This document shows positions 7,273 to 58,817 of a DNA stretch of 64,000 bases, in pieces. Source of the DNA: a candidate division WS6 bacterium OLB20 (GTDB lineage: Bacteria; Patescibacteriota; Dojkabacteria; B142; OLB20); the NCBI GenBank assembly GCA_001567355.1, contig JYNZ01000003.1:678762-742761 (forward strand). Reading direction: 5' to 3'. The notes below the pieces were generated by a model that saw only the letters and a program-made list of their open reading frames with translations, was not told the origin of the DNA and made no database searches. Every line of letters starts with the position of its first letter. Within the stretch, counting starts at the first letter, position 1. The translations under genes and the position numbers were made by a program.

Positions 7273-8178
7273 GTGTCTATCTATAGCTATAAAAAAGCCC
7301 CGGTTCGATACATCCCGAGAGAGGAACGTGTCCTGCCCTCAGAACCCGCACCGGAGCGTGAGATTGTACTCGAATACTCCCCCGAACAGCTGAAGCGTTA
7401 CAAGTCAGGCGTCACCTTGTGGGATATTCTGGCCGGGCTTGCCTCCGAATTTACCGATGCGCTTATCCGTTCGCGTGTTGCCGGACTGCTTGTGCCGGTG
7501 ATCCTGATCCTGTTTGGCGTAAACATCATCTACCGTGAGGTCTGGCCCGAGATAGAGCAGCAGGTAAAGTACGCGCTTGGATACTATGATGTAACAACCG
7601 TTCCACTTGTCGCCGGTGACTATGTTGAGCGTGCTGAATTTCTGTCTAACCCCGGTTCGCGCTACTTTGCAGAACTGTCGGAGGAGGCAGAGGAGGCACA
7701 CGTTCTGATTCCGGATCCGATAAGCAATAACTATCAGGGAAGGTTTAAACTCTCCATTCCAAGCCTGGGTCTTGATGATCTGCCTGTAACTGCAAATGTT
7801 GACAGCGGTGTTCAGGAGACATATGATGCTGTACTCAATTCGGGACTTGCTCACTTTGAAGGCACCGGACTGCCGATATCCAACATTGAGAATAATATTG
7901 TAGTATACGGTCACAGCAGCTCAGGCGATTATTATGAACGTACCGGCGATATCGCAGGTGCCTTTTCTCTCCTGAACAAGATCAAGATCGGTGATGAGAT
8001 AGAGGTTGAGATGGAAGGGCAGATGTACCGTTACAGGGTATACAAGAGCAAGATTGTTCAGCCTGACGATATCTCAATCATCACCGGGCAAAAAGACACG
8101 CGCACGCTTACGCTGTTCACCTGTTTCCCTAATGGTAACAGCGCCAACCGCTTTGTGGCGATCGCCCGGCCTGTGTGA
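7273..8178 (+). CDS. sortase-family transpeptidase
   Basis: N-terminal TM anchor. Catalytic His (VVYGHSS) and TLxTC motif (TLTLFTCFP), then a conserved Arg (ANRFVAIA). Confidence 0.8.
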   Translation: MSIYSYKKAPVRYIPREERVLPSEPAPEREIVLEYSPEQLKRYKSGVTLWDILAGLASEFTDALIRSRVAGLLVPVILILFGVNIIYREVWPEIEQQVKYALGYYDVTTVPLVAGDYVERAEFLSNPGSRYFAELSEEAEEAHVLIPDPISNNYQGRFKLSIPSLGLDDLPVTANVDSGVQETYDAVLNSGLAHFEGTGLPISNIENNIVVYGHSSSGDYYERTGDIAGAFSLLNKIKIGDEIEVEMEGQMYRYRVYKSKIVQPDDISIITGQKDTRTLTLFTCFPNGNSANRFVAIARPV

Positions 8179-9721: not shown

Positions 9722-9775
9722 TTACGCACAGTCTAGCACGTACGTGCCTGTTAAATCCTTAATGAAGAATGAAAC

Positions 9776-11005: not shown

Positions 11006-11101
11006 GGTTCTGGTTACGATGTAATAGTTACAGCCGGGAGTTCGGTCTAGTTAAAAGTGGCAAGAGTCTAGTCTAAAAGATACCAGTGATTTGCGCAATA
11101 A

Positions 11102-12439: not shown

Positions 12440-12545
12440 TTACAAATTGTTACTACATTCTAACTAAAAAGCCCCTCACCTACAACAGCCTGACGTTCAG
12501 GTACGGTATTCTATCATGCCCGGACTTGCGTGCATGTACTTCAGA

Positions 12546-16128: not shown

Positions 16129-17954
16129 TGGCAATGCTGTATGCGCTGGTTATTTTCTTTTCTCTGCCGGCAGGAGTGTTTATCTTCAAACAGGTGCTGT
16201 GGTTTGTGTACCTCTGGCAGATCAAGGAGTACAGAGTTGACCGCGTTTATGCGCATTACCGTTATGAAGATACTCACAGCGGGCAGCTACTGCTGACCTT
16301 TCTCAAGTTCGGCTGTGCGGTGGTTACGTCTCTGTTTCTGCTTTATCCCGAAAACTCAGTCCTGCTTGCAGGGCCAGTGCTTACGTTTATTCTTTACATC
16401 ATCCTGTTTCAGAACTCACTGCAGGAAGTCATCGGTCACCGGCTGGCGCGTCCTAAAATCAAGAGTGTCCGTAATGCAATCGTTGTTGCCGGTGCGCTTG
16501 TTAGTCTAGTGCTGCCGCTGGCCGTGTTTCTCTGGTGGCTTGCTGATTTCTCCGCCCAGCTCACTCCTGCTGCACAGTCTGCAATGGAGCGCTACCAGTC
16601 GGCCGACTTTTCTGACGTGCTGCCTGATGTGACCGGTGAAGGCGTTGTGACTGTGCCGTTTGCAGTCGTTACGGTGGCGTCCACCGCGCTTGTCGTGCTG
16701 GCTACCGATCTGCTTACCCACCTGATAATTATTATCTGGGTACTGTTAACAGCGCCCCTGGCCGAGTTCAGGCGCAGGTATCTGCGCATGCGGGCTGCTG
16801 CAAAACTGGCCGGCATCCGTCAGACTGGGAAGCTGAAGGTTATCGCAGTAACAGGCAGTTACGGCAAGACGACGACCAAGGAACTGCTGTATCAGCTGCT
16901 GTCGCAGAAGTACAAGACGGTTAAAACCCCCGAAAACAAAAACACAGCGGTCGGTGTAGCAATGACGGTACTGACTGACCTGCATGAGGACACAGAGGTG
17001 TTTATCGCCGAGATGGGAGCCTACCGTAAAGGAGAGATCAGAGATGCCACAGAAGTAGCGCCTCCTGATGTCAGCATTGTCACTGCAGTTGGAGAACAGC
17101 ACCTGGCTCTGTTCGGTTCGGTCGAAAACATCTTTCATGCCAAGTACGAGATTGTGGCAGGACTTCGCGAGGGAGGGCTGGCTGTGCTGAACGGGGATAA
17201 CGAATACTGCATGCGCATGGCTGAGCAGACTGATCACCGGACGGTACTGTACTTTACTGTTCAGGGTGATGCGGTCACTGCCGCAGAGGTCACCCCGCCA
17301 CAGCATCGTGATCAGGACAGGCTTCCTGCTGATCATCATGTGTATGCTTATGATATACAAAAGACAGGTAAGGGTCTCGACTTTCAGCTCCGCTACAGAA
17401 AAGAGGAGTACACTGTCAATACTCCATTCAAGGCCAGGCACGATATCTCAAATCTGCTTGCTGTAATGATCTCAATGACAGAGATCGGACTGAGTATGGC
17501 TGAGGTTGTCCGCCTGATAAATACAACAAAAGACCTGAGTGTGCCGTATCTTAATACACACGAGGGAGTTGCAGGCAGTGTGATTATTGATGACGGATAC
17601 AATGCCAATCTGCCTGCATTTCTTGATGCGCTTCAGTACACCAAAGACTATGCCGCAAAAGGCAAACGCTGGCTGATGACGGAAGGACTGATTGAACTGG
17701 GAACTGTGCGGGATACCAGGTACAAAGAGCTTGCCCGCAAGATTACAGAGACTGTTGATGGTATGATTACATCCGATAAGCATCTGGCCGCTGCGGTAAC
17801 AAATGCACAGGAGGACTTTATTGTATGCTTTGCCGATACAGATCAGGGCTTTCTTAATCATTACATAGATCTGGTAAACGAAGGTGACGTTGTGCTTGTC
17901 GAGGGGCGTCTGTCACCAGAGGTGGAGAGGGGAATCATCAAACGGGCTCAATGA
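16128..17954 (+). CDS. murF: UDP-N-acetylmuramoyl-tripeptide--D-alanyl-D-alanine ligase (MurF) with an ~230-aa N-terminal polytopic membrane extension
   Basis: Mur ligase P-loop VIAVTGSYGKTTTKEL. MurF-specific DDGYNANLPAF (DDSYNANP) motif. C-terminal Mur ligase domain. Residues 1-230 contain ~5 hydrophobic helices. Confidence 0.8.
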   Translation: MAMLYALVIFFSLPAGVFIFKQVLWFVYLWQIKEYRVDRVYAHYRYEDTHSGQLLLTFLKFGCAVVTSLFLLYPENSVLLAGPVLTFILYIILFQNSLQEVIGHRLARPKIKSVRNAIVVAGALVSLVLPLAVFLWWLADFSAQLTPAAQSAMERYQSADFSDVLPDVTGEGVVTVPFAVVTVASTALVVLATDLLTHLIIIIWVLLTAPLAEFRRRYLRMRAAAKLAGIRQTGKLKVIAVTGSYGKTTTKELLYQLLSQKYKTVKTPENKNTAVGVAMTVLTDLHEDTEVFIAEMGAYRKGEIRDATEVAPPDVSIVTAVGEQHLALFGSVENIFHAKYEIVAGLREGGLAVLNGDNEYCMRMAEQTDHRTVLYFTVQGDAVTAAEVTPPQHRDQDRLPADHHVYAYDIQKTGKGLDFQLRYRKEEYTVNTPFKARHDISNLLAVMISMTEIGLSMAEVVRLINTTKDLSVPYLNTHEGVAGSVIIDDGYNANLPAFLDALQYTKDYAAKGKRWLMTEGLIELGTVRDTRYKELARKITETVDGMITSDKHLAAAVTNAQEDFIVCFADTDQGFLNHYIDLVNEGDVVLVEGRLSPEVERGIIKRAQ

Positions 17955-18976
17955 ACATAACTGTCGGAGTAATAACAGAAAAATCTGTCTGGGAGGGTTT
18001 TCTCGGTGACTCCGGCCTGGCACATTCGTTTTTTCAGTCATGGAACTGGGGGCAGTTTGAACGCTCACTTGGCAAGACAATCCACTACCTTGGATTTTAT
18101 CAGCTGGATTCACTGCTTGCTGTGGCGCTTGTTACTGAGGTTGATGCCCGCAGAGGCCGGTTTCTGCACGTACGCAACGGTCCCGTGCTTGACTGGCGAC
18201 AAGCTTCCATGGCAAAGGCCATACTTGCAGAACTCGAACAGTTTGCGCGATCTGTCAGCTGTGATTACCTGCGCATCAGCCCGCTTGTGCCACCGGCAGG
18301 GCAGCAGGAGCGTCTCGTACGTATGAGCGGGTTTGTCGACAGTCAGATGCATGATGTTGATGCTGAGATAACCTGGATGCTTGACCTGAGACAGCCAGAG
18401 GAGAAAATACTGGCAGAAATGCGGAAAAACACCCGCTACTACATCCGCAAAGCAGAGCGTGATGGCGTCACCATAGAGGTGACGACCGATCCGGAACGGA
18501 TTGACGACTTCTGGCCCATATATCAGGATACGATCAGGCGCCAGAAATGGAGCGCCTACAGCAAGGAGTACATCCGCAGTGAGTTTGAGCAGTTTGTTAA
18601 AGACGGCTCTGCAGCGCTGTTTCTTGCCCGATACGAAGACAGGTGGATCGCTGGTGCAATCTTTATCTACTACAACGGCCAGGTCTATTATCATCATTCG
18701 GGCAGCCTGACAGAATATCGAAAGATCACAGCCCCGTATCTTCTGCAGTGGGAGTCAATCCGCGAGGCAAAAAGACGCGGCATGGATACTTACAACTTCT
18801 TTGGCATAGCCAGAACGGATGACGAGACGCACCCCTGGCACGGTCTGACATTCTTTAAAAAAGGCTTTGGCGGATATGAGCAGGTGTGGATGCATGCGAA
18901 AGATAAGCCGCTCAGGCTGCGCTACTGGATTACACATCTCTACGAACGCTACGAGCGTAATCGCCGCGGCTACTGA
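17951..18976 (+). CDS. FemAB-family peptidyltransferase (peptidoglycan branch/cross-bridge aminoacyl transferase)
   Basis: GNAT-like tandem fold signature of FemABX proteins (…YYIRKAERDGVTIE…, …FFKKGFGG…). 4-nt overlap with murF. Confidence 0.65.
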   Translation: MNITVGVITEKSVWEGFLGDSGLAHSFFQSWNWGQFERSLGKTIHYLGFYQLDSLLAVALVTEVDARRGRFLHVRNGPVLDWRQASMAKAILAELEQFARSVSCDYLRISPLVPPAGQQERLVRMSGFVDSQMHDVDAEITWMLDLRQPEEKILAEMRKNTRYYIRKAERDGVTIEVTTDPERIDDFWPIYQDTIRRQKWSAYSKEYIRSEFEQFVKDGSAALFLARYEDRWIAGAIFIYYNGQVYYHHSGSLTEYRKITAPYLLQWESIREAKRRGMDTYNFFGIARTDDETHPWHGLTFFKKGFGGYEQVWMHAKDKPLRLRYWITHLYERYERNRRGY

Positions 18977-33500: not shown

Positions 33501-34094
33501 AGCAGAGACCGTCGGATATCTGGCCTATCCGCTGATGGATACCGCTGATAATCAGGAGATATACAGCGGGACCGAATTCGGATTTACGTCTGCCAATCAG
33601 AACTGGGTTCCAGTCACCTTTGAAAGCTCGTTCTCTTCGGTCCCGAAAATTTTTGCCACAATCCAGACTGAATTTGGCAGTGATACCGCAGAGGTCGACA
33701 TACGTAATATTACACAGACAGGTTTTGAAGTGAGGGTCGAGGAGGATGTGTTTGCAGGCTGGGATGGCAATCATGCCTTTGAGCGTATTGCATGGGCAGC
33801 GTTCGAAACACCGTTCAACGGTGATGCAGGGCTTGTGAGTCTTGAGCTCACCGGTATCGGTAATAACAGATGGGTTACCCTTGACGGGTCGACGACCCTG
33901 ATGCGTATGGACCCTTTGGCAGTGCGCCGGTTATCTTTTACGAGGTAAACTCCGAAAACGGCGGTCAGACCATCCAGGGTGACATCAGAAACGTCGGGCA
34001 GACATCGGTTGACGTATCGGTAGAAGAGGAGCGCAACTATGATCAGGTTCACTTCAGTGAGGATCTGGTCTGGTGGGCACTGATGGTTATTTAG
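30547..34094 (+). CDS. second paralogous S8 subtilisin / six lectin-like repeat protein (~1180 aa); last repeat displaced by a frameshift in 33885-33945
   Basis: Same S8 motifs (VAVIDTGLAF, HGTFVTGLIT, GTSFAAPQVAALAAVI). After the annotated stop, a further repeat (…FGSAPVIFYEVNSENGGQTIQGDIRNVGQTSVDVSVEEERNYDQVHFSEDLVWWAL) reads in the +2 frame to 34094. Confidence 0.75.
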
Positions 34095-41652: not shown

Positions 41653-42716
41653 TGCAGCGGCCGCATGGTGTGCTTTTGCTGCTCCTTGTACTGACTGCTT
41701 CACTTCTGCTGTTCTGGAACCTGGAAGAAGCGCCTCTTGAACGCTGGGATGAACTGACAAATATCAACGTCGTTCAGGAAACACGCTCCGGCGGGCATCT
41801 GCTGCCTGTGCTTGGCGGCAAACCGTTTCTCGAAAAACCTCCGCTCTGGTATCTGCTTACATCTGCTCTGACATCGTTTACCGGTGACCATCTGTTCTGG
41901 TATCGCTCGGTCAGCGCATTTTCCGGTCTCGGATGTGTCCTGCTGCTGGTTCTGATTGTGAAGCGTACACATGATATTGCTTCGGGGCTGGCTTCGGGAT
42001 TTACTTTGCTCTCTGTAGTCCATCTGTTTGTCCCGTCCGTGGCCGGACTGTTCTCGTCTCATACATTCCGCAGCGCAGACCTTGACGCATTGCAGCTGTT
42101 TCTGCTGTGCGCAGCCTGGTTTGTGTTTCGGAGCGAACACAAACGTAAAATTGCGTTCACATCAATCCTGATCGGTTGCGCGTATCTGGTCAAGGGGCCG
42201 CTTGCTCTGGGGCTGCTCGGTGTCTGTGTATTTACTCTGTATCGCAGAAGGGCAGAGCTAAGGACTTTCGCCGAGTTGGTACTTCCGGCTGCGGTGCTGG
42301 CCGGACTCTGGTTCTGTCTGATGTTCAAGTACACTTCGGGTGGTATATGGGATTCATACATACTCTACCATCAGCTCGCAAGAATCTCGGGGATAGAAAT
42401 GCACGTAGAGCCTGTGTGGTTTTATATCCTGATACTTGCTCATCCGCTGACCAACCCTGCCGCCTTGCCTGCGGGGATTGCATGGCTGCGGTCACTAAAG
42501 TCCGGGTCGCTGGCAGCTGTCTCTGCAGCGGCTCTGCTGGCAGGACTGAGTTTCATTCTGACAAAGCTGTCTTGGTACGTTTTCCCGGTGTATATTCTGC
42601 TGGCACTGATCACCGGCAGAATGTATCGCCAGTTTGCTCTGCCCTTACAGATCCTGCTCTATGTCGCTGTTGCCGCCGGGATTCTTCAGTCGCTCTGGTA
42701 CGTTATCCGGTTGTAA
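41652..42716 (+). CDS. GT-C glycosyltransferase, ArnT/PMT (GT83/GT39)-like N-terminal membrane domain
   Basis: …DELTNINVVQETRSGGHLLPVLGGKPFLEKPPLWYLLTSA… matches the first periplasmic loop of the ArnT/PMT family. ~9 TM. Confidence 0.6.
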   Translation: MQRPHGVLLLLLVLTASLLLFWNLEEAPLERWDELTNINVVQETRSGGHLLPVLGGKPFLEKPPLWYLLTSALTSFTGDHLFWYRSVSAFSGLGCVLLLVLIVKRTHDIASGLASGFTLLSVVHLFVPSVAGLFSSHTFRSADLDALQLFLLCAAWFVFRSEHKRKIAFTSILIGCAYLVKGPLALGLLGVCVFTLYRRRAELRTFAELVLPAAVLAGLWFCLMFKYTSGGIWDSYILYHQLARISGIEMHVEPVWFYILILAHPLTNPAALPAGIAWLRSLKSGSLAAVSAAALLAGLSFILTKLSWYVFPVYILLALITGRMYRQFALPLQILLYVAVAAGILQSLWYVIRL

Positions 42717-43845
42717 TCTCGCCCTTCGCGTTTGTGGTCAGGTTGATAACCTGTGGCGCTGACGGTCGCTGCATCAGATAAAGAACGAGCGCTGCAAGCA
42801 TGGTAATCAGACTGGCAAACATCAGGCCGAATCCAAGCGGCTGATTTGTGTTTACACTGATATCGGCATCTGCAGCAGACTGCGGAGCAAGGGCAGGCGC
42901 AAAAGGCAGTGTAAACAGATCTTCTGATATTTCGCCGTCCTCGCCGGAGTAGGTCATTGTCACATTGTAGTCACGTGCCGACAGGGTTGAGGTGTCAACA
43001 TCAATCATCCAGAAACCCGCGGCGTCCGGTACTGTTGTATATACAACAGCATCATCGGTATCAAGTGCGATGGTGAGCAGACTGCTTACGCTGCTGCGAC
43101 CGCTTAAAATAAGTACCTCGGGCACGGTCTTCGGGACTGAGGCCGGAGGATAGATCAGTCCGTCAACCTCAACAAACTCATAAAATGCCTGACGCGCTGC
43201 ACCTGTCAATAATCCCTGGATTGTAACCTGCACTGGTACGGACCGTCCTGACTCTCCTGCGGTATTTACTGCGCTCACTTCATAGGTCGGCGTAGTGCCA
43301 GCTGCCCGACCTGTGTCGGTAAAAAATGGAAACCGTGTCTCGGCAACCAATTCACTATCTCTGTAAACCCTGTAAGTGGTCACCCCATCCTGCGGCAGCC
43401 AGTTCAGATCAGTAAAACCCTCACCGACAAAGCTCTGCGTCAGACCTGCGGGGGCCACGGGTGCAGCCTCGCCGCTTACAGCTATGGTCAGGGCGCTGCG
43501 TTTCAGACCGCTTTCCTGCCAGACTGCGTAAAGTATCCGGGATTGCTCCGCGGTAAATGACAGTGCGACCGGTTGATTTTCAATCTCTGCTGAACGAATG
43601 GTCCCGTCTGCGCTTTCCACAACAACACCGCAGCACCAGACCTCGGAACTCCCGCGGGTAAGTTCCAGAGTAACCTCGTCACCTTTTGCAACGGTAAACG
43701 AATCAGGTGAAAATGAACCCGCGCGCTGAGATATATCACCTGTCGACACAGTTACCTGTAACAGTTGCTCCTCAGCCGAAACGGCGGACGGCACTGAAAA
43801 CAGCGCCGCAAAAGTCATGATTGTAGCCAGAATGTACTTACTCAT
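42703..43845 (-). CDS. secreted/cell-surface protein with FN3-like domain and C-terminal TM anchor
   Basis: Signal peptide MSKYILATIMTFAALFSVPSAVSA. FN3-like …GVTTYRVYRDSELVAETRFPFFTDTGRAAGTTPTYEVSAVNTAGESG. C-terminal hydrophobic segment. Confidence 0.5.
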   Translation of the reverse strand: MSKYILATIMTFAALFSVPSAVSAEEQLLQVTVSTGDISQRAGSFSPDSFTVAKGDEVTLELTRGSSEVWCCGVVVESADGTIRSAEIENQPVALSFTAEQSRILYAVWQESGLKRSALTIAVSGEAAPVAPAGLTQSFVGEGFTDLNWLPQDGVTTYRVYRDSELVAETRFPFFTDTGRAAGTTPTYEVSAVNTAGESGRSVPVQVTIQGLLTGAARQAFYEFVEVDGLIYPPASVPKTVPEVLILSGRSSVSSLLTIALDTDDAVVYTTVPDAAGFWMIDVDTSTLSARDYNVTMTYSGEDGEISEDLFTLPFAPALAPQSAADADISVNTNQPLGFGLMFASLITMLAALVLYLMQRPSAPQVINLTTNAKGEITTG

Positions 43846-43894
43846 AGGGCAGAGTTGTACTAGTATAGTATGTAATTATTATTGGTGTGACAAT

Positions 43895-44524
43895 ATGCGT
43901 GTGACGAGGAATGAGACACTTCTCAGACAGCTGACATCAAACAAAGTTATCTGGCTGCTGACACTGTCAGACATTTTTACCTGGGGAAGCTACTACATCA
44001 TCAGTACCATTGCCGGTATATATCTTGCGGGCAGGCTCGGTGTCAATGCTGTCGAAATCATCGGGATCGGTACTGCAGTCTACTTCGTATGCAGGGCTGT
44101 GTTTCAGATCCCGGTAGGTATTATTACCGACAGGCTGGAACGAGACCGTGATGAGGTCCTTATCCTTGCGATCGGGAGCATTCTCATGGGAATGTCGTTT
44201 GTGATGTATCCGCTCATTGACAGGCCGATTTCGTATTTCTTCCTGCAGTTTCTGTTTGGACTTGGTACTGCAATGAATTTGAATACCTGGCGCAAGCTGT
44301 TTGCTAAAAACCTGCAGAAGAACAACGAGGGCAAAGAGTACGGTATGTATGAAGTATTCATGAGTATGGCGATAGCCGCATTCAGCTGGGTCGCAGGTCT
44401 GGTTGCCGGTGCAGGGGGTATTTACTTTGATCTTGTTATGATAGCCGTTGGTATTACCATGATGCTCAGCTTCGGATGGGCGCTTCTGATTCTTACTATC
44501 CGTGACAGAAAGTCGCAGGACTAG
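43895..44524 (+). CDS. small 6-TM MFS-like membrane protein (half-size)
   Basis: GIITDRLERDRDEV resembles the MFS loop motif G-x-x-x-D-R-x-G-R-R. ~6 hydrophobic helices. Confidence 0.35.
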   Translation: MRVTRNETLLRQLTSNKVIWLLTLSDIFTWGSYYIISTIAGIYLAGRLGVNAVEIIGIGTAVYFVCRAVFQIPVGIITDRLERDRDEVLILAIGSILMGMSFVMYPLIDRPISYFFLQFLFGLGTAMNLNTWRKLFAKNLQKNNEGKEYGMYEVFMSMAIAAFSWVAGLVAGAGGIYFDLVMIAVGITMMLSFGWALLILTIRDRKSQD

Positions 44525-44594: not shown

Positions 44595-46343
44595 ATGAAA
44601 GGACGCCGAATCTTCACAACGCTGCTTGTTTTTATGCTGCTTGGTCTCTCTGCTGCAGCTATTTTCATTGGTGTACAGTTGCAGCAGACAGGTGACACAA
44701 CCCCCGATGATACTTCGGCTGCCTGTGTTCCCGGAACAATGATCTGCAATGGTGACAGTCTGGGTACTGTCTGCGGTCAGGGGGGATCCGACTGGGGTAT
44801 TGTCTGCGGAAGTAACGGACAGTGGGACCGGAACACCTGTACCAAGCGTGATGCGTGTGCACGGCGTGACCTCTATACCGGGCGTTCCTGCGCTGATCTT
44901 GTCCGGTTCAGCTGCGGAGAAAACGGCCGGGGAGAATTTGTCGGCTGTAACACCTCAGGGCAGAACTGCTTCTGCCGCAGAACCGATGTCAACTATACAC
45001 CCCAGACTGGAGCATGTAACGTAAGCTGCTGCGCCCGCCAGGGTAATAATCCGGGCGGTAATACCGGATACAGTGGTATCACCGTCACCTGCCTTGACGA
45101 AATCCTTGACGGTCTGGGTCGGGCTGACTCCTGCGGAGCGCGCGTCACCAGTGGCGGCTCAACGCCAACCCCGACTCCGGGAACCTGCAGCTGTTCACAG
45201 GGTTACAATTACTGCGGTGTGGCAATCCCCCCGGGACAGACTTACTGCGGGTACCAGGTCTGCGGACGTGACGGCAGAATGTATACCTGTAATTCAAGCG
45301 GGTGGACTGCAGGCGGAACCTGTTCGATGCAGTGCGACAATCCCACGCCGACCTATACGCCGCCGGTCACAACTCCACCATCTTACAGCTGTCCCAGACA
45401 TCCGAACACTCAGTTCTGGGTCGGATGCCGTGGTGAGCCATACTCAGGCTGCGGTGGACTCAGTGGCTGGATCAGTGGAAGTGATGTGACAAGACGCAAC
45501 CCGAGACCGCAGTTCTATCTGGATATCAACTGCTTTGCAGAGCAGAACGGACGTATTGACGGAGCATACACAAACGCCTACGTAGAGCTGCGCCGTAACG
45601 GTCAGCTGGTGCGGACATTCAACGACTGGAACGTCCGTGATTATCTGATAACTGACTACGGCAGTTATTCTGCACGCTGCATTGACAGATCAGACGCATC
45701 GTGCGGTGATACCGACGGTTTCGCGATCAATGCACCGCCACCGACAACCATTCCGCCGTCACCGTCACCCACATTTACGCCGACGAACACGCCGACAAAT
45801 ACGCCGACAAATACACCGACCAATACGCCAACCAACACACCGACGGCTACCAGTACACCAACGGCAACGCCTACACCTACAAACACACCGACAAATACGT
45901 ACACACCGACACCGACTCCATCTGTTACAACAACCATTGTGGAGACGGTCACCCCGACACCAACGCCGTCACCGACGACTCCTCCCGGATTCCTCGAGTG
46001 TTATGAGACAGGATGCGACAGTGCACCATGTGTCATCGGGCTTGTGTGTCAGAACAACCGCTGCGTGAATCCGCAATACCCTGACAGTCCTGTATGTAAG
46101 CCAGGTGTCGTGACAACAATCCCGCCGACCGCCCTGATCAGTGACACTGCTGACCGTATTCTGCTTGGTACCATACTGCTGATAGCAGCAATCTGGGGGT
46201 ACATTGCCGGTGCATACCAGACGGTCGGCAATGCTGTCTGGTTGAATGTTTTACGGCCCGGGCTTGCAAAGGCCGTACCGTCATACGGCCAGAAGCAGTA
46301 TGAGCAGGAGGCCTCGGAGCGCCTGAAACCTGAAGACGACTAG
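44595..46343 (+). CDS. Cys-rich surface protein with Pro/Thr-repeat stalk and C-terminal TM anchor
   Basis: N-terminal signal-anchor …[16 protein letters not shown]… and >40 Cys in the first 380 aa. (PTNT)n stalk. Hydrophobic C-terminal segment [18 protein letters not shown]. Confidence 0.6.
45777..45850 (+). repeat. 12-nt tandem repeat (CCGACAAATACG)n encoding PTNT linker
   Basis: ~6 direct copies with minor variation, inside CDS 44595-46343. Confidence 0.7.
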
Positions 46344-46348
46344 CCTGT

Positions 46349-47311
46349 ATGGAAAACCGACGAACCCTCATAATTGCCTTGTTTCTCGCAACCGCAGTTC
46401 TTGGCGCGTTGTCAATCTTTCTTGGAGTTCAGCTTCAGCAGAATCAGAACACTACACCGGATCCGGCTGCTGCTGCGTGTCCGATCGGTAAAGTCCGCTG
46501 CAGGACTGATAACCCCGGCATCTGTCCCGGACTGCATCCCAGTGACGGAAACCCAGCGATTGATGCGATGGTGGGTCAGCTATGCGGTGACGGTGTCAAC
46601 TGGGGTGGCTGCACCTATTTTGACGCATGTGCTCCTCAGGTCAGTGATGACGTTACCGCCTGTGCAGGTGATTATCCCGCTGTGTCAACGCGGATTATCA
46701 GGTTGAGCAGCGGTGAGCCAGACCGCGGGTCATTTGTTGGATGTGACTATTCAATTCAGCCGGGGGTGGGATACAATTGCTTCTGTCCGGAAAATGTCAG
46801 TGTCCGACAGCCGTTCACTGTGGGAACTGTCAACTGTTTTGAGGACCGCAACAGCGATTCATGTAATGCCCGTGAGATGACCCCTACTGTAACAAATACA
46901 CCAACCAGTACGCCCACAAATACGCCTACTAGCACGCCCACAAATACCCCAACCAGTACGCCGACCAATACTCCAACCAGCACGCCGACAAGTACACCCT
47001 CAGCAACACCAAGTGCTACCGCCTCCCCGACGCTGACACCAACCGCATCACCATCGGCAACGGTGACACCGACAAATACGCCAACACCAACAAACACAGC
47101 GACGCCGACTCCAACACCGTCGGTGACCACTACAACAGTAGAGACGTTTACACCGACGCCGACTCCTTCTGTTACGGTTACGCTGCCGCCAACCGCTATC
47201 GGTGACGGACCGCAGGGTATACTGGCTGGACTGCTGCTGCTGGGACTGGGACTGTGGCTGTATATCTCAGGCGGTGCAGATATTGTTCTCAGGCGCGCAC
47301 GGGGTTATTGA
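46349..47311 (+). CDS. paralogous Cys-rich Pro/Thr-repeat surface protein with sorting-signal-like C-terminus (LPPTAIGDG + hydrophobic segment + RRARGY)
   Basis: Shares the N-terminal …[17 protein letters not shown]…AAACP… and the C-terminal …[11 protein letters not shown](I/T)VET(V/F)TPTPTPS… with the upstream gene. Confidence 0.6.
46897..46998 (+). repeat. 30-nt tandem repeat encoding ([10 protein letters not shown])n linker
   Basis: ~3.5 direct copies, inside CDS 46349-47311. Confidence 0.7.
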
Positions 47312-48348
47312 GCTTTATAGGTCTGATTAAGCCATCCAAGCCAGTGCTGCCAGATCTCGCGGGGCACTCCGTCATTCTCTCTGAGAGCGAGTGAGTCAAA
47401 GATCTGAAACCCTGATCCCGAAGAAACGCCATTTTCCCAGTGGTAGGGATCGTTCAGCATCAGCCAGTTGACGAAAACGGTCTCAGTAGGTGAGAGCAGT
47501 TGCTGCAGCCGTTTAAGATAGATAACCTGTTCCTCTGGAGAACCGGTATAGTTCTGATCGTTCAGAAACTGCAGATCCTTTCCGTAGCTCTCGCGTGCGG
47601 GCCAGCCGGTCTCTGTGATAGCCAGCGGCTTGCCGGTTGCAGTCGCAGTCAGAAAGTAGTCGTCGGGAATATCTTGCGGATCTTTGTACTGTAAATGCGG
47701 ATAGACTGTAAGCCCTACTGCATCAATGTGTCCACTGACAAGGCCTAGAAGTTCTGTTTGCTCCGTTGTGCCGTTTTCGCCCATAAGCGTCGCACGACCG
47801 GTGAGTGCGTCGTACTGAAATGTCGTGTATATGGTCCTGTCAGAGAATTCTTCTTTCAGGGCCGTGTAGATCTCTGTGTATGCCTCAAAGAATTCAAGAT
47901 AGTTGTCGGGATGTGAAAACTCAAACAGATTAACCTCGTTACCGACTGAAAGATGGGTGATCTGTGGATACTCCTGTAAAAGAGTGGAAGCAGTTTTCAG
48001 GTAATCATTCCTGCGAGACCGCCAGTCTTCAGGCGACTGAAATCCGAGTACCAGTTCAATATCAAGATCTGTTTTTGCTGCCGCATCTCTGATGAGACCG
48101 GTATCCTGCCAGTCAACGTGGATACCGTACAGCTCCGATGCGGATTCGATATCAGGCCAGAACGCCTGAGCTGCATCAGATGTATATGACGGAAACCCTG
48201 CCGGAGCAAAACCGCTGATGCCGATCAGGTAGGATCGGGTGCCCGGTGGTATTACCGAAGGATCCTCAGGAGCAAGTTTTGGCACAGGTGCTTTACATGC
48301 CTGCAGGGCACAGGCTGCTATCAGTAGAGACAGAAGCAGCTTTTTCAT
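47305..48348 (-). CDS. lipoprotein, glycoside hydrolase clan GH-A (GH5-like) candidate
   Basis: Lipobox signal [25 protein letters not shown] (acid/base NE) and LAITETGW (nucleophile E) motifs spaced as in (beta/alpha)8 GH-A enzymes. Confidence 0.55.
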
Positions 48349-48424
48349 ATGTGTTCCGCTGATATTCTCTACTGTAGCATACAGCTTGACTGGAATCACG
48401 GATTACCATACGCTAAAAGCATAC

Positions 48425-48718
48425 ATGGAAGAAACTGATCTGACCTCAAAAATTGCAGGCATCCTGCGCGAATGCGGAGATGCCCATCATGAGTTCGAAC
48501 AGAACGAACTTCAGGGTAAACGCGATGAATCCTGGCCGGCGTGGTATGCCAAATATCTGCTGGAGCATGGTATGGATGAACTGTTTGAAGAACAGGTCAG
48601 CCCAGCCGATCTTGAGTCCACACTTCTTGAGGCGGCCGGTTCGTTTGAAGGAATAAAAGATGATACCCGGACATGGGATCAGTACTACGCCCAGGCGATT
48701 ACTGAGCAATTTACCTGA
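48425..48718 (+). CDS. small acidic hypothetical protein (MEETDLTSKIAGILRECGDAHHEFEQ…WPAWYAKYL…)
   Basis: ORF with the start chosen outside the overlap with the convergent gene. Confidence 0.3.
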   Translation: MEETDLTSKIAGILRECGDAHHEFEQNELQGKRDESWPAWYAKYLLEHGMDELFEEQVSPADLESTLLEAAGSFEGIKDDTRTWDQYYAQAITEQFT

Positions 48719-48731
48719 TCAGATACAATCA

Positions 48732-49574
48732 ATGCCTGTTAAAAAACACAAGGATATTGACCTGGGTCGTTCACTTAAAAGCTTTTTCGAGCTGCCTGAC
48801 TGGCAGGAGCGCACACTGTTCATCGGCGGACTGTTTGTAGGCCTGATGCTTCTGTATGTGCTGTTTCTCGTCACAATGTTTATCCCGCTGATTGGTATCA
48901 TTGCCTCGTGCTGTTTTCTGGTTATGTTTCCGCTGGTTTCCATGGCAGTCAATTTTTATGTGGATGGTTACAGAACAGAACTGACAGATGCGCTTGTTGC
49001 AGGAAAGACAGCAGACAGCGTGAGGGTCAGCGGCAACTATCAGGAACGCATTATTACCGGATTTAAGCTGGGTGTCTCCAACCTGATTTATAATATTCCC
49101 CTTATACTTCTATATGTGGTCGGGTACGTCATGCTTATTGCCCCCGTTTTTGCAGTCAGCATTGGCTCGGCAGCAAATGATGAATTGAGTGGTCTGGCTA
49201 TGCTGACGCTACTGTCAACGACGCTGATGTTCTATGTCTTTATTCTGATCGGCTGGTTCTGGCAGATAGTTCAGATGTATCTGATATACCCTGTGATGTT
49301 TATTTTCTTCAGAAAGGAACGTTCAATCAGGGATGCGCTGCGAGTGAGGAAAATGGTCTCCTTTGTCCGGAACAACTACATGAACGTCCTGATCTATTCA
49401 CTTGTCATGCTCGGCATTGCGCTTCTTTTTGGAATGGCCATGATGGTTTCTGTTCTTCTGGTCTTCCTCTGCATCGGAATCATCATTGCCCCGGTTGTAT
49501 TTGCTGTCGGTACAACATATACAATACATCTGCAGGCGGACATGCTGGCCCAGATGGAGCGAAACTCCCGCTGA
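48732..49574 (+). CDS. polytopic membrane protein (possibly DUF4013-like)
   Basis: ~6 TM helices after a short N-terminal cytoplasmic segment. Confidence 0.4.
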   Translation: MPVKKHKDIDLGRSLKSFFELPDWQERTLFIGGLFVGLMLLYVLFLVTMFIPLIGIIASCCFLVMFPLVSMAVNFYVDGYRTELTDALVAGKTADSVRVSGNYQERIITGFKLGVSNLIYNIPLILLYVVGYVMLIAPVFAVSIGSAANDELSGLAMLTLLSTTLMFYVFILIGWFWQIVQMYLIYPVMFIFFRKERSIRDALRVRKMVSFVRNNYMNVLIYSLVMLGIALLFGMAMMVSVLLVFLCIGIIIAPVVFAVGTTYTIHLQADMLAQMERNSR

Positions 49575-56250: not shown

Positions 56251-58817
56251 ATGCCTCTGATCCTGATCGTTTGTTCGACAATCCTTATTCTAGGTGCTGC
56301 CGCTGTCTTAGCCGGCAGATACTTTTATCTTCGCAGCAGTATTAACGAGGAGCTGCTTGAGCAGGTAGTGCTTCTGATCTCGGTACCGACAAAAAACGAC
56401 AAGACTCCTCTGGCTGCTGAACAGCTGTTTCAGTCGCTGCACGGTATCCTCCGCGAATCTGGCAAGGCATCAAGTCAGTACTCGTTTGAAATTATTGCCA
56501 CTCAGTCGGGCATCTTTTTTATTGCAGTGTGCCCGAGGCGTTACCGCGAGTTTTTAGAAAATCAGATTTACTCGCAGTATCCCCAGGCCCAGATCAGGCA
56601 GATTCAGGATTATGCCGCTGCACAAAAACATACAAGCATGCCATACGCCGCATCAGAGCTTGGACTTGGCCGGGAGTTCTATCTGCCGATCAAAACATTT
56701 ACAAACTTCACCGTTGATCCTCTTGCATCAATTACCGGTGCTGTTTCAAAACTCTCTCCTGGTTACGAAGCATGGATACAATTGATTGCGCGCCTATCGG
56801 TAACAGCTGGCAGGACCGCGGCAAAAAATTTGTTAACCACATGAAGGCAAGAACAGACTCGGAGGGTAAAAAAATCCAGCTCGAGTCAGGAGAAAGTGCT
56901 GAGTTGCGCGAGGTTGAAACAAAAAACTCCAAGGTCGGATTTCAGTTTGTCGTCCGGCTGATGGTACTTGGACCTGATAAATTAATTGCTCAGCAGATCC
57001 TCGAGGACATTGAGGCATCGTATAAGCAGTTTCAGACCGGTCAGTTTAATTCTCTGGTCAAAAAAAAGGAGAAAAAGGGGATGCTGCGTCCGGTCATGCG
57101 CCTATTATTCGGACGCAGACGAACAGAACGGCTTGATCTGCGGTCCAAATACAAGCTGCGGTTTCTCGATGAGAGAAGTGACGATGTGATTAATACAGAG
57201 GAGCTTGCGTCACTCTACCATCTGCCGAACGAAACAGTGGAAACCCCAAATATAGTCTGGGCGAAGTCCAGAAAACTCGAATTTCCGAAAAATCTGCCAT
57301 TTAACCAGGGCCGTATTTTTGCAAAAACTGACTACAGAAACCTTGAAGTGCCCTTTGGCATTAGGGATATGGATCGCAGACGCCACATGTATATTCTCGG
57401 AAAAACAGGCAGCGGTAAATCAACCCTGCTTAAGAACATGATTATCGCTGATATCCGTGAAGGCAAGGGACTGGCTGTAATTGATCCTCATGGAGATCTT
57501 GTGGAGGACGTCCTCAGATATACACCGCTCGAGCGCGCAAATGACATTGTCTACCTGGATCCGTCCGATATGATGTTTCCGATTGGTATCAACATGCTTG
57601 ATCTTAAGGAGTCCGAAACTATCGAGCTCCTGTCTGACGGAATTGTTTCGGTTTTTAAGCGGTATTTTGACTCCTGGGGTCCGAGGCTGCAATACATACT
57701 TACAAACACAATTCTCACGCTGCTGCATTGTCAGAACGTATCACTGCTGGCTGTCCAGCGTATTCTGGTTGACGAAAACTACCGCACGTTTCTGCTGAAA
57801 CAGGTTAAAGATCCGTTTCTTGTCCAGTTCTGGGAGAAAGAGTTTGCCGACATGGCCAAAAACCCCAGAATGCTGACCGAGGCGATTGCTCCGATCCAGA
57901 ATAAAGTAGGACGCTTTCTTAACTCGCCCATGGTCAGAAACATGGTCGGACAGGTCAAGTCCCGGGTTGACCTGGAGGATATCATGAACAGCGGTAAGGT
58001 GCTGCTGGTCAATCTATCCCAGGGTAAGATCGGTGAGGAAAACTCGTCTCTCCTTGGAGGAATGCTGGTGACCCGTCTTTACACAAACGCGATGCAGCGT
58101 GCACGTATGGCTGAGTCAGAGCGGCGCGACTTTTACGTCTATGTTGATGAGTTCCAGAACTTTGCTACTGATTCGTTTGCAAAGATCCTGTCAGAGGCAC
58201 GCAAGTACGCACTTAACCTTGTAGTGACGCACCAGTATGTTGATCAGATTTCAGAAGAGCTGCAATCTGCAATATTCGGTAATGTCGGCACCATGCTCAA
58301 TTTTGTGGTCGGTCAGGCTGATGCTGCAAGGCTTGCAAAGGAGTTTGAGCCGTATCTTGACAGCGAGGATCTGGTTAATCTGGAACGCCACGCGCTGTCG
58401 ATAAAACTTATGGTTGACGGTACGCAAAGTGTACCGTTTACAGCAAAGTCACTTGCACCGTTTCATCTGGAGCTCGGTTTTCAGGAGCAGATCAAAGAGG
58501 CATCACGTTCTAACTACGCCACTGAACGTGCTGTTATTGAGGAGAAACTCAATAAATGGTCACTGCAGCGATACAACAGTAAGGGTAACCTTATTCAGGA
58601 CGGTGGTCGCGAACAGAACGACAGACCTGCTAAAAAACAAGATGACACTAAGCAGAACGCAGGCAAGGCTTCGGAAGACGATCCCCGTAGTGAAGAAACC
58701 CCTTCCACCGGGAAGAAGCCCAGGGCAGATAAGTCGCCAGAACCGGAGAAGCCCGGACAGAACAAGAATACGAAACCCGTAAACGATGAGTCCAGCGGGA
58801 GTGCCGTTGAACCCTAG
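56251..58817 (+). CDS. membrane-anchored P-loop ATPase of the VirD4/TraD/TrwB-HerA (FtsK-HerA superfamily) type, with K/E/D/P-rich disordered C-terminal tail; N-terminal TM module and ATPase separated by a 1-nt frameshift at A6 run 56823-56828
   Basis: Walker A HMYILGKTGSGKSTLL. Walker B FYVYVDEFQNFA. C-terminal ARKYALNLVVTHQYVDQIS…GNVGTMLNFVV matches the coupling-protein/HerA arginine-finger region. Reading through the A-run gives …AAKKFVNHMKARTD…. Confidence 0.55.

What the first reader, a model, noticed from the sequence alone, without database searches (positions are those of the whole stretch)
44595..47311. Two tandem paralogous Cys-rich Pro/Thr-repeat surface proteins with conserved N-terminal GVQLQQ anchor and sorting-signal-like C-terminus
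Both start with a basic N-terminus, a hydrophobic helix and the motif (I)FLGVQLQQ, then a Cys-dense domain (many disulfides likely). A (PTNT)/([10 protein letters not shown]) stalk encoded by nucleotide tandem repeats follows, then a shared …[21 protein letters not shown]… segment and a C-terminal hydrophobic helix. The second copy ends LPPTAIGDG + hydrophobic + RRARGY. This is the architecture of a sortase sorting signal with a non-canonical motif, and a sortase gene is present at 7273-8178. They may be substrates of that sortase or a lineage-specific adhesin family.
Basis: seen in the sequence. Interest (0 to 1): 0.55.

Follow-up and report, generated by a model that had tools for sequence, protein, structure and literature searches.

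The report
Dojkabacteria surface proteins with LPxTA sortase signal
Two neighbouring genes of an uncultured ultra-small bacterium (WS6/Dojkabacteria OLB20) encode cysteine-rich surface proteins whose tails carry a lineage-wide, uncatalogued variant of the signal that Gram-positive bacteria use to fasten proteins to their cell wall.

Summary
Two co-oriented ORFs, 5 bp apart, lie at 44595-46343 (P1, 582 aa, 36 Cys) and 46349-47311 (P2, 320 aa, 12 Cys). They share an N-terminal leader and a homologous Cys-rich domain. Both have Pro/Thr stalks encoded by 12/24/48-nt tandem repeats. Both end in (I/L)PPTA, a hydrophobic helix and a tail. The window comes from candidate division WS6 (Dojkabacteria) bacterium OLB20.

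The C-terminus is not a local oddity. A profile of it finds 122 protein clusters with unrelated passenger domains, almost always at the extreme C-terminus. The consensus is [LI]PxTALISDExDR, then a TM helix, then a tail of about 43 aa. P, T and A are nearly invariant. No Pfam or NCBIfam model covers it.

The sortase at 7273-8178 is intact (His, TLFTC Cys, Arg). It belongs to a Dojkabacteria-wide orthologue group that always sits between rpoD and ftsZ, near a Mur ligase and FemAB.

Best reading (about 0.62): P1 and P2 are wall-anchored, adhesin-like substrates of this housekeeping sortase, cleaved at T|A. This is inferred and has not been shown. The long conserved cytoplasmic tail of P1-type signals is atypical and keeps a "permanent membrane anchor" rival alive.

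I rate it a new variant of a known kind, of moderate interest.

The parts
44595..46343 (+). P1 gene, 582 aa, 36 Cys. It is a multi-domain surface protein with the long-form LPxTA sorting signal.
   Evidence: ORF. A 39%-identical orthologue occupies the same tandem position in L002/L001. The gene is called as 582 aa in an independent assembly, L023.
44595..44723 (+). P1 N-terminal leader (aa 1-43): MKGRR, a hydrophobic helix, IFIGVQLQQ, then [12 protein letters not shown] directly before Cys44.
   Evidence: Sequence. It matches the lineage consensus found in 80 of 108 full-length family members. AF2 models a helix over aa 2-32. Cleavage after A43 is inferred only.
44724..45143 (+). P1 Cys-rich domain A (aa 44-183), homologous to the N-domain of P2.
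   Evidence: Alignment z = 27.9. phmmer hits to L002 orthologues, P0003 and P0097. No Pfam, NCBIfam or PDB match. AF2 confidence is low.
45180..45344 (+). P1 Cys-rich domain B (aa about 196-250). It is absent from P2.
   Evidence: It resembles a domain of a third tandem gene in the related locus L001 7071-8312 (phmmer 3e-7).
45387..45749 (+). P1 domain C (aa about 265-385), a predicted Ig-like beta-sandwich with 6 Cys.
   Evidence: AF2 pLDDT is 74-93 over aa 290-390. Foldseek against PDB gives only generic Ig-like, adhesin or CBM sandwiches, none with E <= 1e-3. The domain is conserved in P0001, P0002 and the L002 540-aa protein.
45729..45980 (+). P1 Pro/Thr stalk (PTNT repeats). It includes the conserved island [10 protein letters not shown].
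   Evidence: TRF period 12/24 arrays at 45776-45844 and 45873-45895. The island is shared with P2 and P0008 at the protein level, at 65% nucleotide identity.
45990..46097 (+). P1 six-Cys 'knot' [28 protein letters not shown], directly upstream of the sorting motif.
   Evidence: The same module lies before the signal in P0019 (same genome), P0006, P0015, P0029 and in L021, L019 and L020.
46119..46157 (+). P1 sorting motif [13 protein letters not shown] (aa 509-521). The predicted sortase cleavage is T512|A513.
   Evidence: It matches the family logo [LI]PxTALISDExDR derived from 113 sequences. The cleavage site is inferred by analogy with LPXTA sortase signals (PMC8225981).
46158..46340 (+). 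P1 C-terminal TM helix (aa about 522-541) and 41-aa cytoplasmic tail (G..VW, then ..QYEQE..). The tail is net acidic.
   Evidence: Hydropathy 2.32. AF2 models helices at 520-537, 540-560 and 562-576. Tail features are conserved across the family: median 43 aa, G..xW in 74/121, F[EDQ]x near the end in 92/121.
46349..47311 (+). P2 gene, 320 aa, 12 Cys: leader + domain A + PT stalk + short-form LPxTA signal.
   Evidence: ORF. It has a 50%-identical orthologue, P0003, E = 5e-64. One public gene call replaced it with an antisense 124-aa ORF.
46349..46477 (+). P2 N-terminal leader (aa 1-43): MENRR, a hydrophobic helix, IFLGVQLQQ, then [12 protein letters not shown] before Cys44.
   Evidence: P2 narrowly misses the search pattern I used for the leader, but it aligns with the consensus.
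46478..46873 (+). P2 Cys-rich domain A (aa 44-175).
   Evidence: phmmer hits to P0003 (7e-45), P0118 (1e-44), P0097 (1.5e-23) and the L002 540-aa protein (3e-24). Twelve Cys are invariant in the alignment. The fold is not predictable (pLDDT about 35-65).
46874..47182 (+). P2 Pro/Thr stalk ([10 protein letters not shown] repeats) with the island [10 protein letters not shown].
   Evidence: TRF period 12/24/48 arrays at 46891-46998, score up to 158.
47183..47308 (+). P2 sorting signal: LPPTA (aa 279-283), IGDGPQ spacer, TM helix (aa about 290-310) and basic tail [10 protein letters not shown].
   Evidence: AF2 models a helix at 288-306. Its orthologue P0003 keeps the full LPATALISDSSDR, so in P2 only LPxTA has been retained. 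Other short-form examples occur in L012 (LPHTA..RRVAVKEN).
7273..8178 (+). Sortase, the candidate processing enzyme (301 aa). It has a conserved cytoplasmic N-terminus, a TM helix at aa about 70-87, and catalytic H214, C284 (TLFTC) and R293.
   Evidence: PF04203 E = 3.5e-21. It is below all NCBIfam class cut-offs. The nearest PDB entry is the class C sortase 8t28, 3.5e-14. It is 100% identical to the WS6 OLB20 sortase, with about 120 full-length orthologue clusters. The catalytic residues are invariant. The rpoD | srt | ftsZ position is conserved.
17951..18976 (+). FemAB-family gene downstream of a Mur ligase (16128-17954). This is context: it could build a peptidoglycan cross-bridge, the usual sortase acceptor.
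   Evidence: PF02388 E = 7.8e-46. The same Mur ligase-FemAB pair lies near the sortase in L024 and L025. Its role as acceptor-builder is inferred.

Best explanation
P1 and P2 are a co-transcribed pair of secreted, disulfide-rich, adhesin-like surface proteins of the CPR bacterium WS6/Dojkabacteria OLB20.

Proposed steps:
1. Each protein is exported through Sec by a lineage-typical N-terminal leader.
2. Its Cys-rich and Ig-like domains fold outside the cell. The even Cys counts suggest that all cysteines are disulfide-bonded.
3. The C-terminal TM helix holds the protein in the membrane, so that the conserved (L/I)PxTA motif, about 9 residues outside the membrane, is presented to the membrane-anchored housekeeping sortase (7273-8178).
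4. The sortase cleaves between Thr and Ala and transfers the protein to a peptidoglycan precursor, possibly a FemAB-built cross-bridge.
5. The Pro/Thr stalk next to the anchor spans the wall and holds the N-terminal domains outward.

Shown here: the architecture, the family-wide conservation of LPxTA at the C-terminus of unrelated passengers, an intact sortase in the same genome, and its lineage-wide conservation.

Inferred: export, disulfides, T|A cleavage, the wall acceptor, and the adhesive function.
For: (1) Tripartite signal. Both proteins end in (I/L)PPTA + hydrophobic helix + tail. They are the only such ORFs in the window.

(2) The signal behaves like a sorting domain.
- A profile search finds 122 clusters (15 at E <= 1e-10) of 72-846 aa, matched almost always at the extreme C-terminus.
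- Passengers are diverse: mostly no Pfam domain, but DUF11 in 8, DUF7927 in 5, Laminin_G_3 in 1, plus weak RrgB-type isopeptide-domain hits. These are types common in Gram-positive wall proteins.

(3) The logo is constrained: P 113/113, T 108/113, A 110/113. Short-form variants (P2; L012 LPHTA; L009 LPKTA) keep only LPxTA + TM + basic residues. This shows that the pentapeptide is the constrained core.

(4) LPXTA is an established sortase motif (class D; B. anthracis SrtC cleaves LPNTA after T; PMC8225981).

(5) The sortase has an invariant His/Cys(TLFTC)/Arg triad and an N-terminal TM anchor. Its orthologues are found wherever Dojkabacteria are named. The signal is likewise found in Dojkabacteria genomes. 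Both occur in the OLB20 genome, 37 kb apart in this window.

(6) Cell-wall context. The sortase sits between rpoD and ftsZ-ftsA-ftsQ, with Mur ligase and FemAB nearby, in four genomes.

(7) A PT-rich stretch directly upstream of the anchor, with the functional domains N-terminal to it, is the standard layout of wall-anchored adhesins (established knowledge).

(8) CPR bacteria are enriched in sortases and in MdbA-like disulfide oxidoreductases (PMC6744442).
Against: - No experiment or proteomic evidence for cleavage is available.
- The sortase does not reach the cut-off of any curated class: best 68 bits against 160 for class C, and 62 against 165 for class D. Specificity is therefore not predictable from sequence.
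- P1-type signals have features foreign to classical sorting signals: a strongly conserved LISDExDR after the scissile site, and a conserved cytoplasmic tail (median 43 aa, up to more than 100 aa) that is mixed-charge or acidic. This suggests the C-terminal part has a function of its own and may be retained.
- No substrate gene lies next to a sortase gene in any locus examined.
- A lineage-restricted signal and a lineage-restricted sortase would co-occur even without a functional link.
- No curated LPXTG-anchor model matches at significance.
Confidence: 0.62

Rival explanations
1. Permanent membrane anchoring. The proteins are never cut by sortase. The C-terminal TM helix plus conserved cytoplasmic tail (and perhaps the uncleaved N-terminal helix) keep them in the membrane. 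On this reading, LPxTALISDExDR is a juxtamembrane structural or interaction motif, and the tail binds a cytoplasmic partner.
For: Tail and spacer are conserved well beyond what a discarded sorting peptide needs: LISDExDR nearly invariant, G..xW in 74/121, F[EDQ]x near the end in 92/121, and 20/121 tails longer than 70 aa. P1's tail is net acidic rather than basic. AF2 models the tail as helices.
Against: Near-invariance of exactly L/I-P-x-T-A is hard to explain otherwise. Short-form members (P2, P0003, L012) lack the tail yet keep LPxTA + TM + basic residues, which is a textbook sorting signal. An intact sortase is conserved in the lineage, and no other candidate substrates were seen in the window.
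Confidence: 0.2
2. The signal is read by a different sorting machine, such as a rhomboid-type or other intramembrane protease or an unknown lineage-specific enzyme. The resemblance to LPXTA is then coincidental.
For: The extended conserved motif and tail resemble the dedicated signal/enzyme pairs of exosortase or rhombosortase systems more than generic LPXTG signals. A rhomboid gene lies next to rpoD-sortase in one relative (L026). The sortase class is undefined.
Against: No PEP-CTERM, GlyGly-CTERM or similar model matches. In those systems the motif abuts the TM helix, whereas here it sits about 9 residues outside, as in sortase signals. No candidate enzyme is conserved next to the substrate genes: the neighbours are an MFS fragment, a GH-like lipoprotein and DUF4013, and they differ between L001/L002 and L021.
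Confidence: 0.08
3. Sortase-built polymer. The proteins are subunits of a sortase-assembled fibre or of head-to-tail linked chains rather than individually wall-anchored adhesins.
For: The nearest solved sortase is class C, the pilus-assembly class. There are weak RrgB isopeptide-domain hits in 3 family members. The genes are in tandem arrays (two here, three in L001, four in L011). Some family members carry LPxTG just after the N-terminal helix, which after cleavage would expose an N-terminal Gly nucleophile.
Against: There is no pilin motif and no sortase in the gene cluster. The sortase is a single housekeeping-type gene next to rpoD/ftsZ. P1 and P2 themselves lack an N-terminal LPxTG. Class C membership is not met (68 against 160 bits).
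Confidence: 0.06
4. P2 is not a real gene but a chance ORF through a PT-coding repeat. One public gene call prefers the antisense ORF 46756-47130.
For: The gene caller used for L023 called a 124-aa antisense ORF and no P2.
Against: P2 has a 50%-identical orthologue over 314 aa, in the same tandem position. It has a non-repetitive N-domain with 12 invariant Cys conserved in four relatives. It also has both targeting signals. The antisense ORF is pure GV repeat.
Confidence: 0.01

Closest known systems
Gram-positive cell-wall sorting signal (LPXTG + hydrophobic domain + charged tail; TIGR01167 / PF00746) with a housekeeping sortase
   Same: A pentapeptide with invariant P and T, about 9 residues before a C-terminal TM helix. 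A secretion signal at the N-terminus. A Pro-rich wall-spanning region next to the anchor. A single membrane-anchored sortase with the His-Cys(TLxTC)-Arg triad encoded away from its substrates. P2 also has the short basic tail.
   Different: Position 5 is Ala, not Gly. In most members the following eight residues (LISDExDR) are conserved. The tail is long (median 43 aa), conserved, and mixed-charge or acidic. Curated anchor models do not match. The host is a CPR bacterium whose wall chemistry is unknown.
Class D sortase system of Bacillus (SrtC with BasH/BasI, LPNTA; B. subtilis YhcS with YhcR/YfkN)
   Same: An LPxTA pentapeptide with cleavage after Thr (PMC8225981). The window's sortase gives partial hits to the class D and SrtD (LPxTATN-specific) models.
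   Different: The sortase scores 62 bits against a cut-off of 165 for class D, and scores slightly higher on class C. The Bacillus enzymes serve one or two sporulation-linked substrates, whereas here the enzyme looks like the general sortase of the lineage, with many substrates. There is no sporulation context.
Dedicated C-terminal sorting domains paired with lineage-specific enzymes (PEP-CTERM/exosortase, GlyGly-CTERM/rhombosortase, PGF-CTERM/archaeosortase)
   Same: A short signature, a TM helix and a charged region at the extreme C-terminus of many otherwise unrelated secreted proteins within one lineage. The genes are often in tandem paralogous arrays.
   Different: The signature is a sortase-type LPxTA placed outside the membrane rather than abutting it. 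No exosortase or rhombosortase models or signals were detected. The enzyme present is a classical sortase.
Pro/Thr-linker, Cys-rich secreted proteins (for example cellulase PT linkers and DUF11/CARDB-type surface repeats)
   Same: PT stalks encoded by short tandem DNA repeats. Ig-like beta-sandwich domain C. Some family members carry DUF11 domains.
   Different: Domains A and B and the six-Cys knot have no detectable relatives outside a handful of Dojkabacteria sequences. No catalytic or carbohydrate-binding family could be assigned.

Membership tests
Sortase enzyme (PF04203) - ORF 7273-8178 | Match to the sortase domain above Pfam's gathering score | tested here: met
   75.7 bits against a cut-off of 26.6, E = 3.5e-21.
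Sortase enzyme (PF04203) - ORF 7273-8178 | Catalytic His, Cys within TLxTC, and Arg | tested here: met
   YGH214S, TLFTC284 and R293 are invariant in 14 orthologues.
Sortase enzyme (PF04203) - ORF 7273-8178 | Assignment to one of the curated classes A-F (NCBIfam cut-offs) | tested here: not met
   Class C 68.0 against 160; class D 62.3 against 165; SrtD 61.4 against 140; class E 47.3 against 160; class F 11.8 against 166. The class is undefined.
Sortase cell-wall sorting signal (LPXTG-type) | Pentapeptide L/I-P-x-T-[G/A] near the C-terminus | tested here: met
   IPPTA (P1 aa 509-513) and LPPTA (P2 aa 279-283). Family logo: P 113/113, T 108/113, A 110/113.
Sortase cell-wall sorting signal (LPXTG-type) | Hydrophobic membrane-spanning segment within about 10 residues after the motif | tested here: met
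   Kyte-Doolittle 17-mer maxima of 2.32 (P1) and 2.20 (P2). AF2 models helices there.
Sortase cell-wall sorting signal (LPXTG-type) | Short, positively charged tail at the extreme C-terminus | tested here: inconclusive
   P2 meets it ([10 protein letters not shown]). P1 does not: its tail is 41 aa with 5 K/R and 6 D/E. The family median is 43 aa.
Sortase cell-wall sorting signal (LPXTG-type) | N-terminal secretion signal | tested here: inconclusive
   A basic n-region and a 22-aa hydrophobic helix are present. The candidate AxA-like site (SAA|C, AAA|C) lies about 16 residues after the helix, so cleavage is uncertain. No signal-peptide predictor was available.
Sortase cell-wall sorting signal (LPXTG-type) | Match to curated anchor models (PF00746, TIGR01167) | tested here: not met
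   No hit for P1 or P2 at E <= 1. Among 114 family members, only 2 hit TIGR01167, at 0.055.
Sortase cell-wall sorting signal (LPXTG-type) | A sortase encoded in the same genome | tested here: met
   The sortase lies 37 kb upstream in the same window.
Sortase cell-wall sorting signal (LPXTG-type) | Cleavage after Thr and amide linkage to peptidoglycan | not testable with these tools
   This needs biochemistry or proteomics.
Class D LPXTA system (Bacillus SrtC type) | Class D sortase plus LPxTA substrates, linked to sporulation | tested here: not met
   The motif is met, but the sortase is below the class D cut-off. It sits in a division/cell-wall core locus, and there are many substrates.
Bacterial lipoprotein (lipobox) | [LVI][ASTVI][GAS]C at the end of the signal-peptide h-region | tested here: not met
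   Cys44 is preceded by SAA or AAA and lies about 16 residues beyond the helix. Cys totals are even (36, 12), and lipidation of one Cys would leave an odd number. Most family members have no Cys at that position.
Type IV pilin-like N-terminus | G|(F/M)TLxE prepilin cleavage motif before the hydrophobic helix | tested here: not met
   The leaders read [11 protein letters not shown].. and [11 protein letters not shown].., with no such motif.
PEP-CTERM / GlyGly-CTERM / other exosortase-type signals | Signature motif abutting the TM helix, and a match to NCBIfam sorting-domain models | tested here: not met
   No such models were hit by P1 or P2. One family member gave a chance-level PEP-CTERM hit at 0.016.

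The most novel reading that the evidence does not exclude
The Dojkabacteria signal may be more than a variant pentapeptide. It could be a two-sided sorting module in which the conserved post-cleavage segment (ALISDExDR + TM + conserved cytoplasmic tail) has its own function. Candidate functions are docking on the sortase's equally conserved cytoplasmic N-terminus (M.LY.YKKAPVK ... TLWDI), or acting as a membrane-retained 'C-peptide' that reports surface-protein processing.

In a subset of family members the same sortase might also remove the N-terminal anchor, at an LP(Q/E)TG site that sits exactly where P1 and P2 have TPDD/TPDP. That would make sortase act at both ends of its substrates, and it could allow head-to-tail ligation.
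Probability: 0.12. Interest if true: 0.75.

Novelty: new variant of a known kind. Interest (0 to 1): 0.45.

Why it matters
CPR/Patescibacteria are thought to live attached to other microbes, and their surface proteins are the likely tools of host recognition. Almost none of these proteins can be annotated.

Sortases are known to be enriched in CPR (PMC6744442), but I found no description of their substrates or recognition motif in this lineage.

A defined signal, [LI]PxTALISDExDR + TM + tail, would let one list the wall-anchored proteome of Dojkabacteria straight from metagenomes. It would flag P1, P2 and about 120 other clusters as candidate adhesins. It would also give a concrete peptide for testing a CPR sortase in vitro.

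The unusually conserved cytoplasmic tail is a feature that classical sortase biology does not explain.

Practically, P2-type genes can be lost in automated annotation because the PT repeat offers a competing antisense ORF.

Tried and rejected
- BLASTP of P1 against P2 with compositional adjustment found nothing. A shuffle-controlled Smith-Waterman alignment was needed instead.
- Pfam and NCBIfam gave no hit for either protein.
- A PDB sequence search gave only a low-complexity PT-linker hit (8zvk_A).
I used a back-translated DNA pattern instead. Four of its 14 loci were chance matches in unrelated bacteria.
- I looked for a sortase next to substrate genes in 23 loci, and for substrates next to three sortase orthologues. 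None was found.
- Exact look-ups of P1 and P2 in the protein collection found nothing, so I could not see how GenBank annotates them.
- Strain comparison of repeat number: the only other assembly of this locus (L023) is identical over 3.1 kb, so it is uninformative.
- The promoter and terminator scan showed nothing notable around the pair.
- Lipoprotein and prepilin readings of the N-terminus were considered and rejected (see the membership tests).
- Literature searches for CPR or Dojkabacteria sortase motifs found only general statements.


Full report
**What is there**

P1 is at 44595-46343 (582 aa) and P2 at 46349-47311 (320 aa). They lie on the same strand, 5 bp apart, so they are very probably co-transcribed.

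Both begin with a basic stretch, a hydrophobic helix of about 22 residues and I-F-(I/L)-G-V-Q-L-Q-Q. In the six-frame translation of the whole window, that hexapeptide pattern occurs only at these two places.

The first about 180 residues are truly homologous. The alignment scores 207, against 36.8 +/- 6.1 for shuffles (z = 27.9). Default BLASTP failed to report this.

P1 has 36 cysteines and P2 has 12. Both counts are even, as expected if all are paired.

The Pro/Thr stalks are encoded by tandem DNA repeats of period 12/24/48. They contain a shared island, [11 protein letters not shown](I/T)VET(V/F)TPTPTPS. It is 65% identical at the DNA level, so it is kept by selection on the protein rather than by recent gene conversion.

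P1 carries extra modules:
- a second Cys-rich segment;
- a domain of about 120 residues that AlphaFold models with confidence as an Ig-like beta-sandwich (pLDDT 74-93; no specific PDB match);
- a six-Cys knot (LECYETGC...[10 protein letters not shown]...YPDSPVCKP) directly before the C-terminal signal.

No Pfam, NCBIfam or PDB family matches either protein.

**Source and relatives**

The sortase ORF of the window is 100% identical to the sortase of candidate division WS6 (Dojkabacteria) bacterium OLB20, a member of the Candidate Phyla Radiation.

Homologues of the passenger domains are very rare: three hits among 5.8 billion clusters. One related organism (L001-L003) has the same tandem pair. 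Its 540-aa protein is 39% identical to P1, and its 304-aa protein is 50% identical to P2. A third gene of the same kind lies upstream.

In another relative (L021) the flanking genes are syntenic, but the P2 slot holds a different passenger with the same two targeting signals. A further locus (L011) has four such genes in a row. The region therefore behaves as a variable surface-protein array.

**The C-terminal signal**

Comparing the C-termini of these proteins showed a common module on unrelated passengers.

A profile of eight C-termini was searched exhaustively against 1.84 billion representatives. It found 122 clusters at E <= 1e-3, of which 15 were at E <= 1e-10. The proteins are 72-846 aa long, and the match is almost always at the extreme C-terminus.

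The logo from 113 sequences is (T/C)-[L72/I25]-P113-x-T108-A110-L93-I87-S89-D106-E60-x-D111-R97. A TM helix follows, then a tail with a median of 43 residues. The tail often contains G..xW just after the helix (74/121) and F-(E/D/Q)-x near its end (92/121).

A back-translated DNA pattern recovered the motif in Dojkabacteria genomes, including a complete 1.17-Mb genome. It also hit Microgenomates OLB22, one MAG labelled Saccharibacteria, one labelled Deltaproteobacteria (possibly a mis-binned contig), and several unclassified MAGs. Four further matches were chance hits.

The OLB20 genome itself encodes at least a third carrier, P0019 (KXK26877.1). It has the same six-Cys knot and the motif [13 protein letters not shown].

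P2, its orthologue's relatives and some others show a short form, for example LPHTA + TM + RRVAVKEN in L012. In the short form only LPxTA, the helix and a few basic residues remain. This points to the pentapeptide as the constrained core. My profile was built mainly from long-tail members, so the share of short-form signals is underestimated.

No curated model covers the signal. Pfam's Gram_pos_anchor and TIGR01167 do not match at significance in any of 114 members.

**The enzyme**

ORF 7273-8178 is a sortase (PF04203, E = 3.5e-21). It has an N-terminal cytoplasmic segment, one TM helix and a catalytic domain with His214, Cys284 (TLFTC) and Arg293. All three residues are invariant in 14 orthologues.

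It reaches no NCBIfam class cut-off. The nearest solved structure is a class C enzyme.

About 120 full-length orthologue clusters (41-83% identity) exist, and those that carry a name are labelled WS6 or Dojkabacteria.

In the window and in three other genomes the gene sits between rpoD and ftsZ-ftsA-ftsQ. Two of those three also have the Mur ligase plus FemAB pair close by, and the third shows a Mur ligase only. In the window, FemAB is at 17951-18976 (E = 7.8e-46). This looks like a housekeeping sortase embedded in the division and cell-wall core, not a pilus-cluster enzyme.

No substrate gene is adjacent to a sortase in any locus I fetched.

**Mechanism proposed**

- Export via Sec using the N-terminal leader (inferred).
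- Oxidative folding outside the cell (inferred from even Cys counts and from the reported enrichment of MdbA-like oxidoreductases in CPR; PMC6744442).
- Retention by the C-terminal helix.
- Recognition of (L/I)PxTA by the sortase, cleavage after Thr, and transfer to a peptidoglycan precursor. This is inferred by analogy with LPXTA and LPXTG systems (PMC8225981).
- The PT stalk then spans the wall and displays the Cys-rich and Ig-like domains, which are plausibly adhesive.

I put this reading at about 0.62.

**What does not fit neatly**

Classical sorting signals have no conservation after the scissile bond, and their tails are short and basic. Here LISDExDR and a long tail are conserved, and P1's tail is net acidic. 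Either the C-terminal remnant has a function, or these proteins stay in the membrane (rival, about 0.2). A different processing enzyme (about 0.08) or sortase-built polymers (about 0.06) cannot be excluded.

**The N-terminal motif**

A few members instead have ordinary AxA signal peptides. One protein with the leader has no C-terminal signal: a 354-aa protein in the complete Dojkabacteria genome whose sequence suggests a foldase, though I did not test that. The leader is therefore a general export signal of these bacteria, not part of the sortase signal.

Whether it is cleaved is open. The conserved Pro...Ala lies about 16 residues beyond the helix, which is far for signal peptidase I. Lipoprotein and prepilin readings fail (see the membership tests).

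**Comparison with known systems and novelty**

Functionally this is a sortase/LPXTA-type anchoring system. It is not a member of the class D Bacillus system, because the class cut-off is not met and the context differs. It is not captured by any curated anchor model.

I file it as a new variant of a known kind. It is a lineage-specific, extended LPxTA sorting domain in a CPR phylum, with P1 and P2 as two carriers whose passenger domains are otherwise unknown.

Interest is moderate (0.45). The biology is expected in outline, since CPR are known to be sortase-rich. However, the motif, its conserved tail and the resulting catalogue of candidate adhesins appear undescribed, and they are directly testable.

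Noticed in passing
Family members P0017, P0031, P0037, P0067, P0073, P0075, P0076, P0082, P0085; L011 1547-2761, 2830-4032, 4038-4835 (all minus strand): A canonical LP(Q/E/T)TG motif sits at residues 34-38, immediately after the N-terminal helix. This is the same position where P1 and P2 have TPDD/TPDP. It occurs in 9 of 111 full-length members at that position, against 2 occurrences in about 40,000 other residues. A sortase site at the N-terminal end of a sortase substrate would be unusual.
   Followed up: partly
window 46756-47130 (-), inside P2; L023 6219-6593: The PT repeat of P2 offers an antisense 124-aa Gly/Val-repeat ORF. The gene caller used for an independent assembly of the same strain called that ORF and missed P2 entirely. 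PT-stalk surface proteins may be systematically under-annotated.
   Followed up: partly
window 47305-48399 (-), overlapping the end of P2 by 7 bp: A convergent gene encodes a lipoprotein-like protein ([11 protein letters not shown]) with GNEVN and TETGW motifs, which are reminiscent of clan A glycoside hydrolases (from memory, not tested). It has no Pfam or PDB hit. It is conserved next to the surface-protein array in L021, together with a DUF4013 membrane protein (window 48660-49574).
   Followed up: partly
window 6015-13682 and 16128-18976; L024, L025, L026: The sortase is locked in a conserved core arrangement across Dojkabacteria: rpoD | sortase | ftsZ-ftsA-ftsQ, with a Mur ligase nearby. 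A FemAB gene follows the Mur ligase in the window, L024 and L025, but was not seen in L026. In the window an APH-family kinase gene and a NUDIX gene are inserted between the sortase and ftsZ.
   Followed up: yes
window 45900-45960 (P1) and 47100-47160 (P2); P0008: A conserved non-repetitive island, PSVTTT(I/T)VET, lies inside the PT stalks. It is kept at the protein level despite 65% DNA identity, and it is also present in an unrelated metagenomic fragment. Its function is unknown; it might be a recognition or modification site.
   Followed up: partly
window 26844-33948 (+): A cluster of large secreted proteins: two S8 subtilases (one with C-terminal H-type lectin domains) and a protein with an H-type lectin plus a phage tail-fibre gp53-like C-terminal domain. 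These look like further cell-surface or host-interaction candidates.
   Followed up: no
window 42703-43845 (-): Another surface-type protein. It has a classical AxA signal peptide, weak cupredoxin-like and other sub-threshold domain hits, and a C-terminal TM helix but no LPxTA motif. So not every C-terminally anchored protein here uses the signal.
   Followed up: no
window 43817-44524 (+); L001 5414-7060: The MFS transporter ORF directly upstream of P1 is only 235 aa, about half a normal MFS protein. In the syntenic relative, only a 197-aa ORF at this position hits MFS, preceded by two short ORFs with no Pfam match. It is possibly a decaying gene or a split transporter.
   Followed up: no
L021 4425-5801 (-) compared with window 46349-47311: In a syntenic relative the P2 position is occupied by a 458-aa protein (P0011) with a completely different passenger but the same leader and C-terminal signal. 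This suggests cassette-like turnover of surface proteins at this locus.
   Followed up: partly
window 56772-58817 (+): A VirD4/TrwB-type coupling-protein ATPase (DUF87, TrwB_AAD_bind). This hints at a type IV secretion or conjugation-like element near the end of the window.
   Followed up: no
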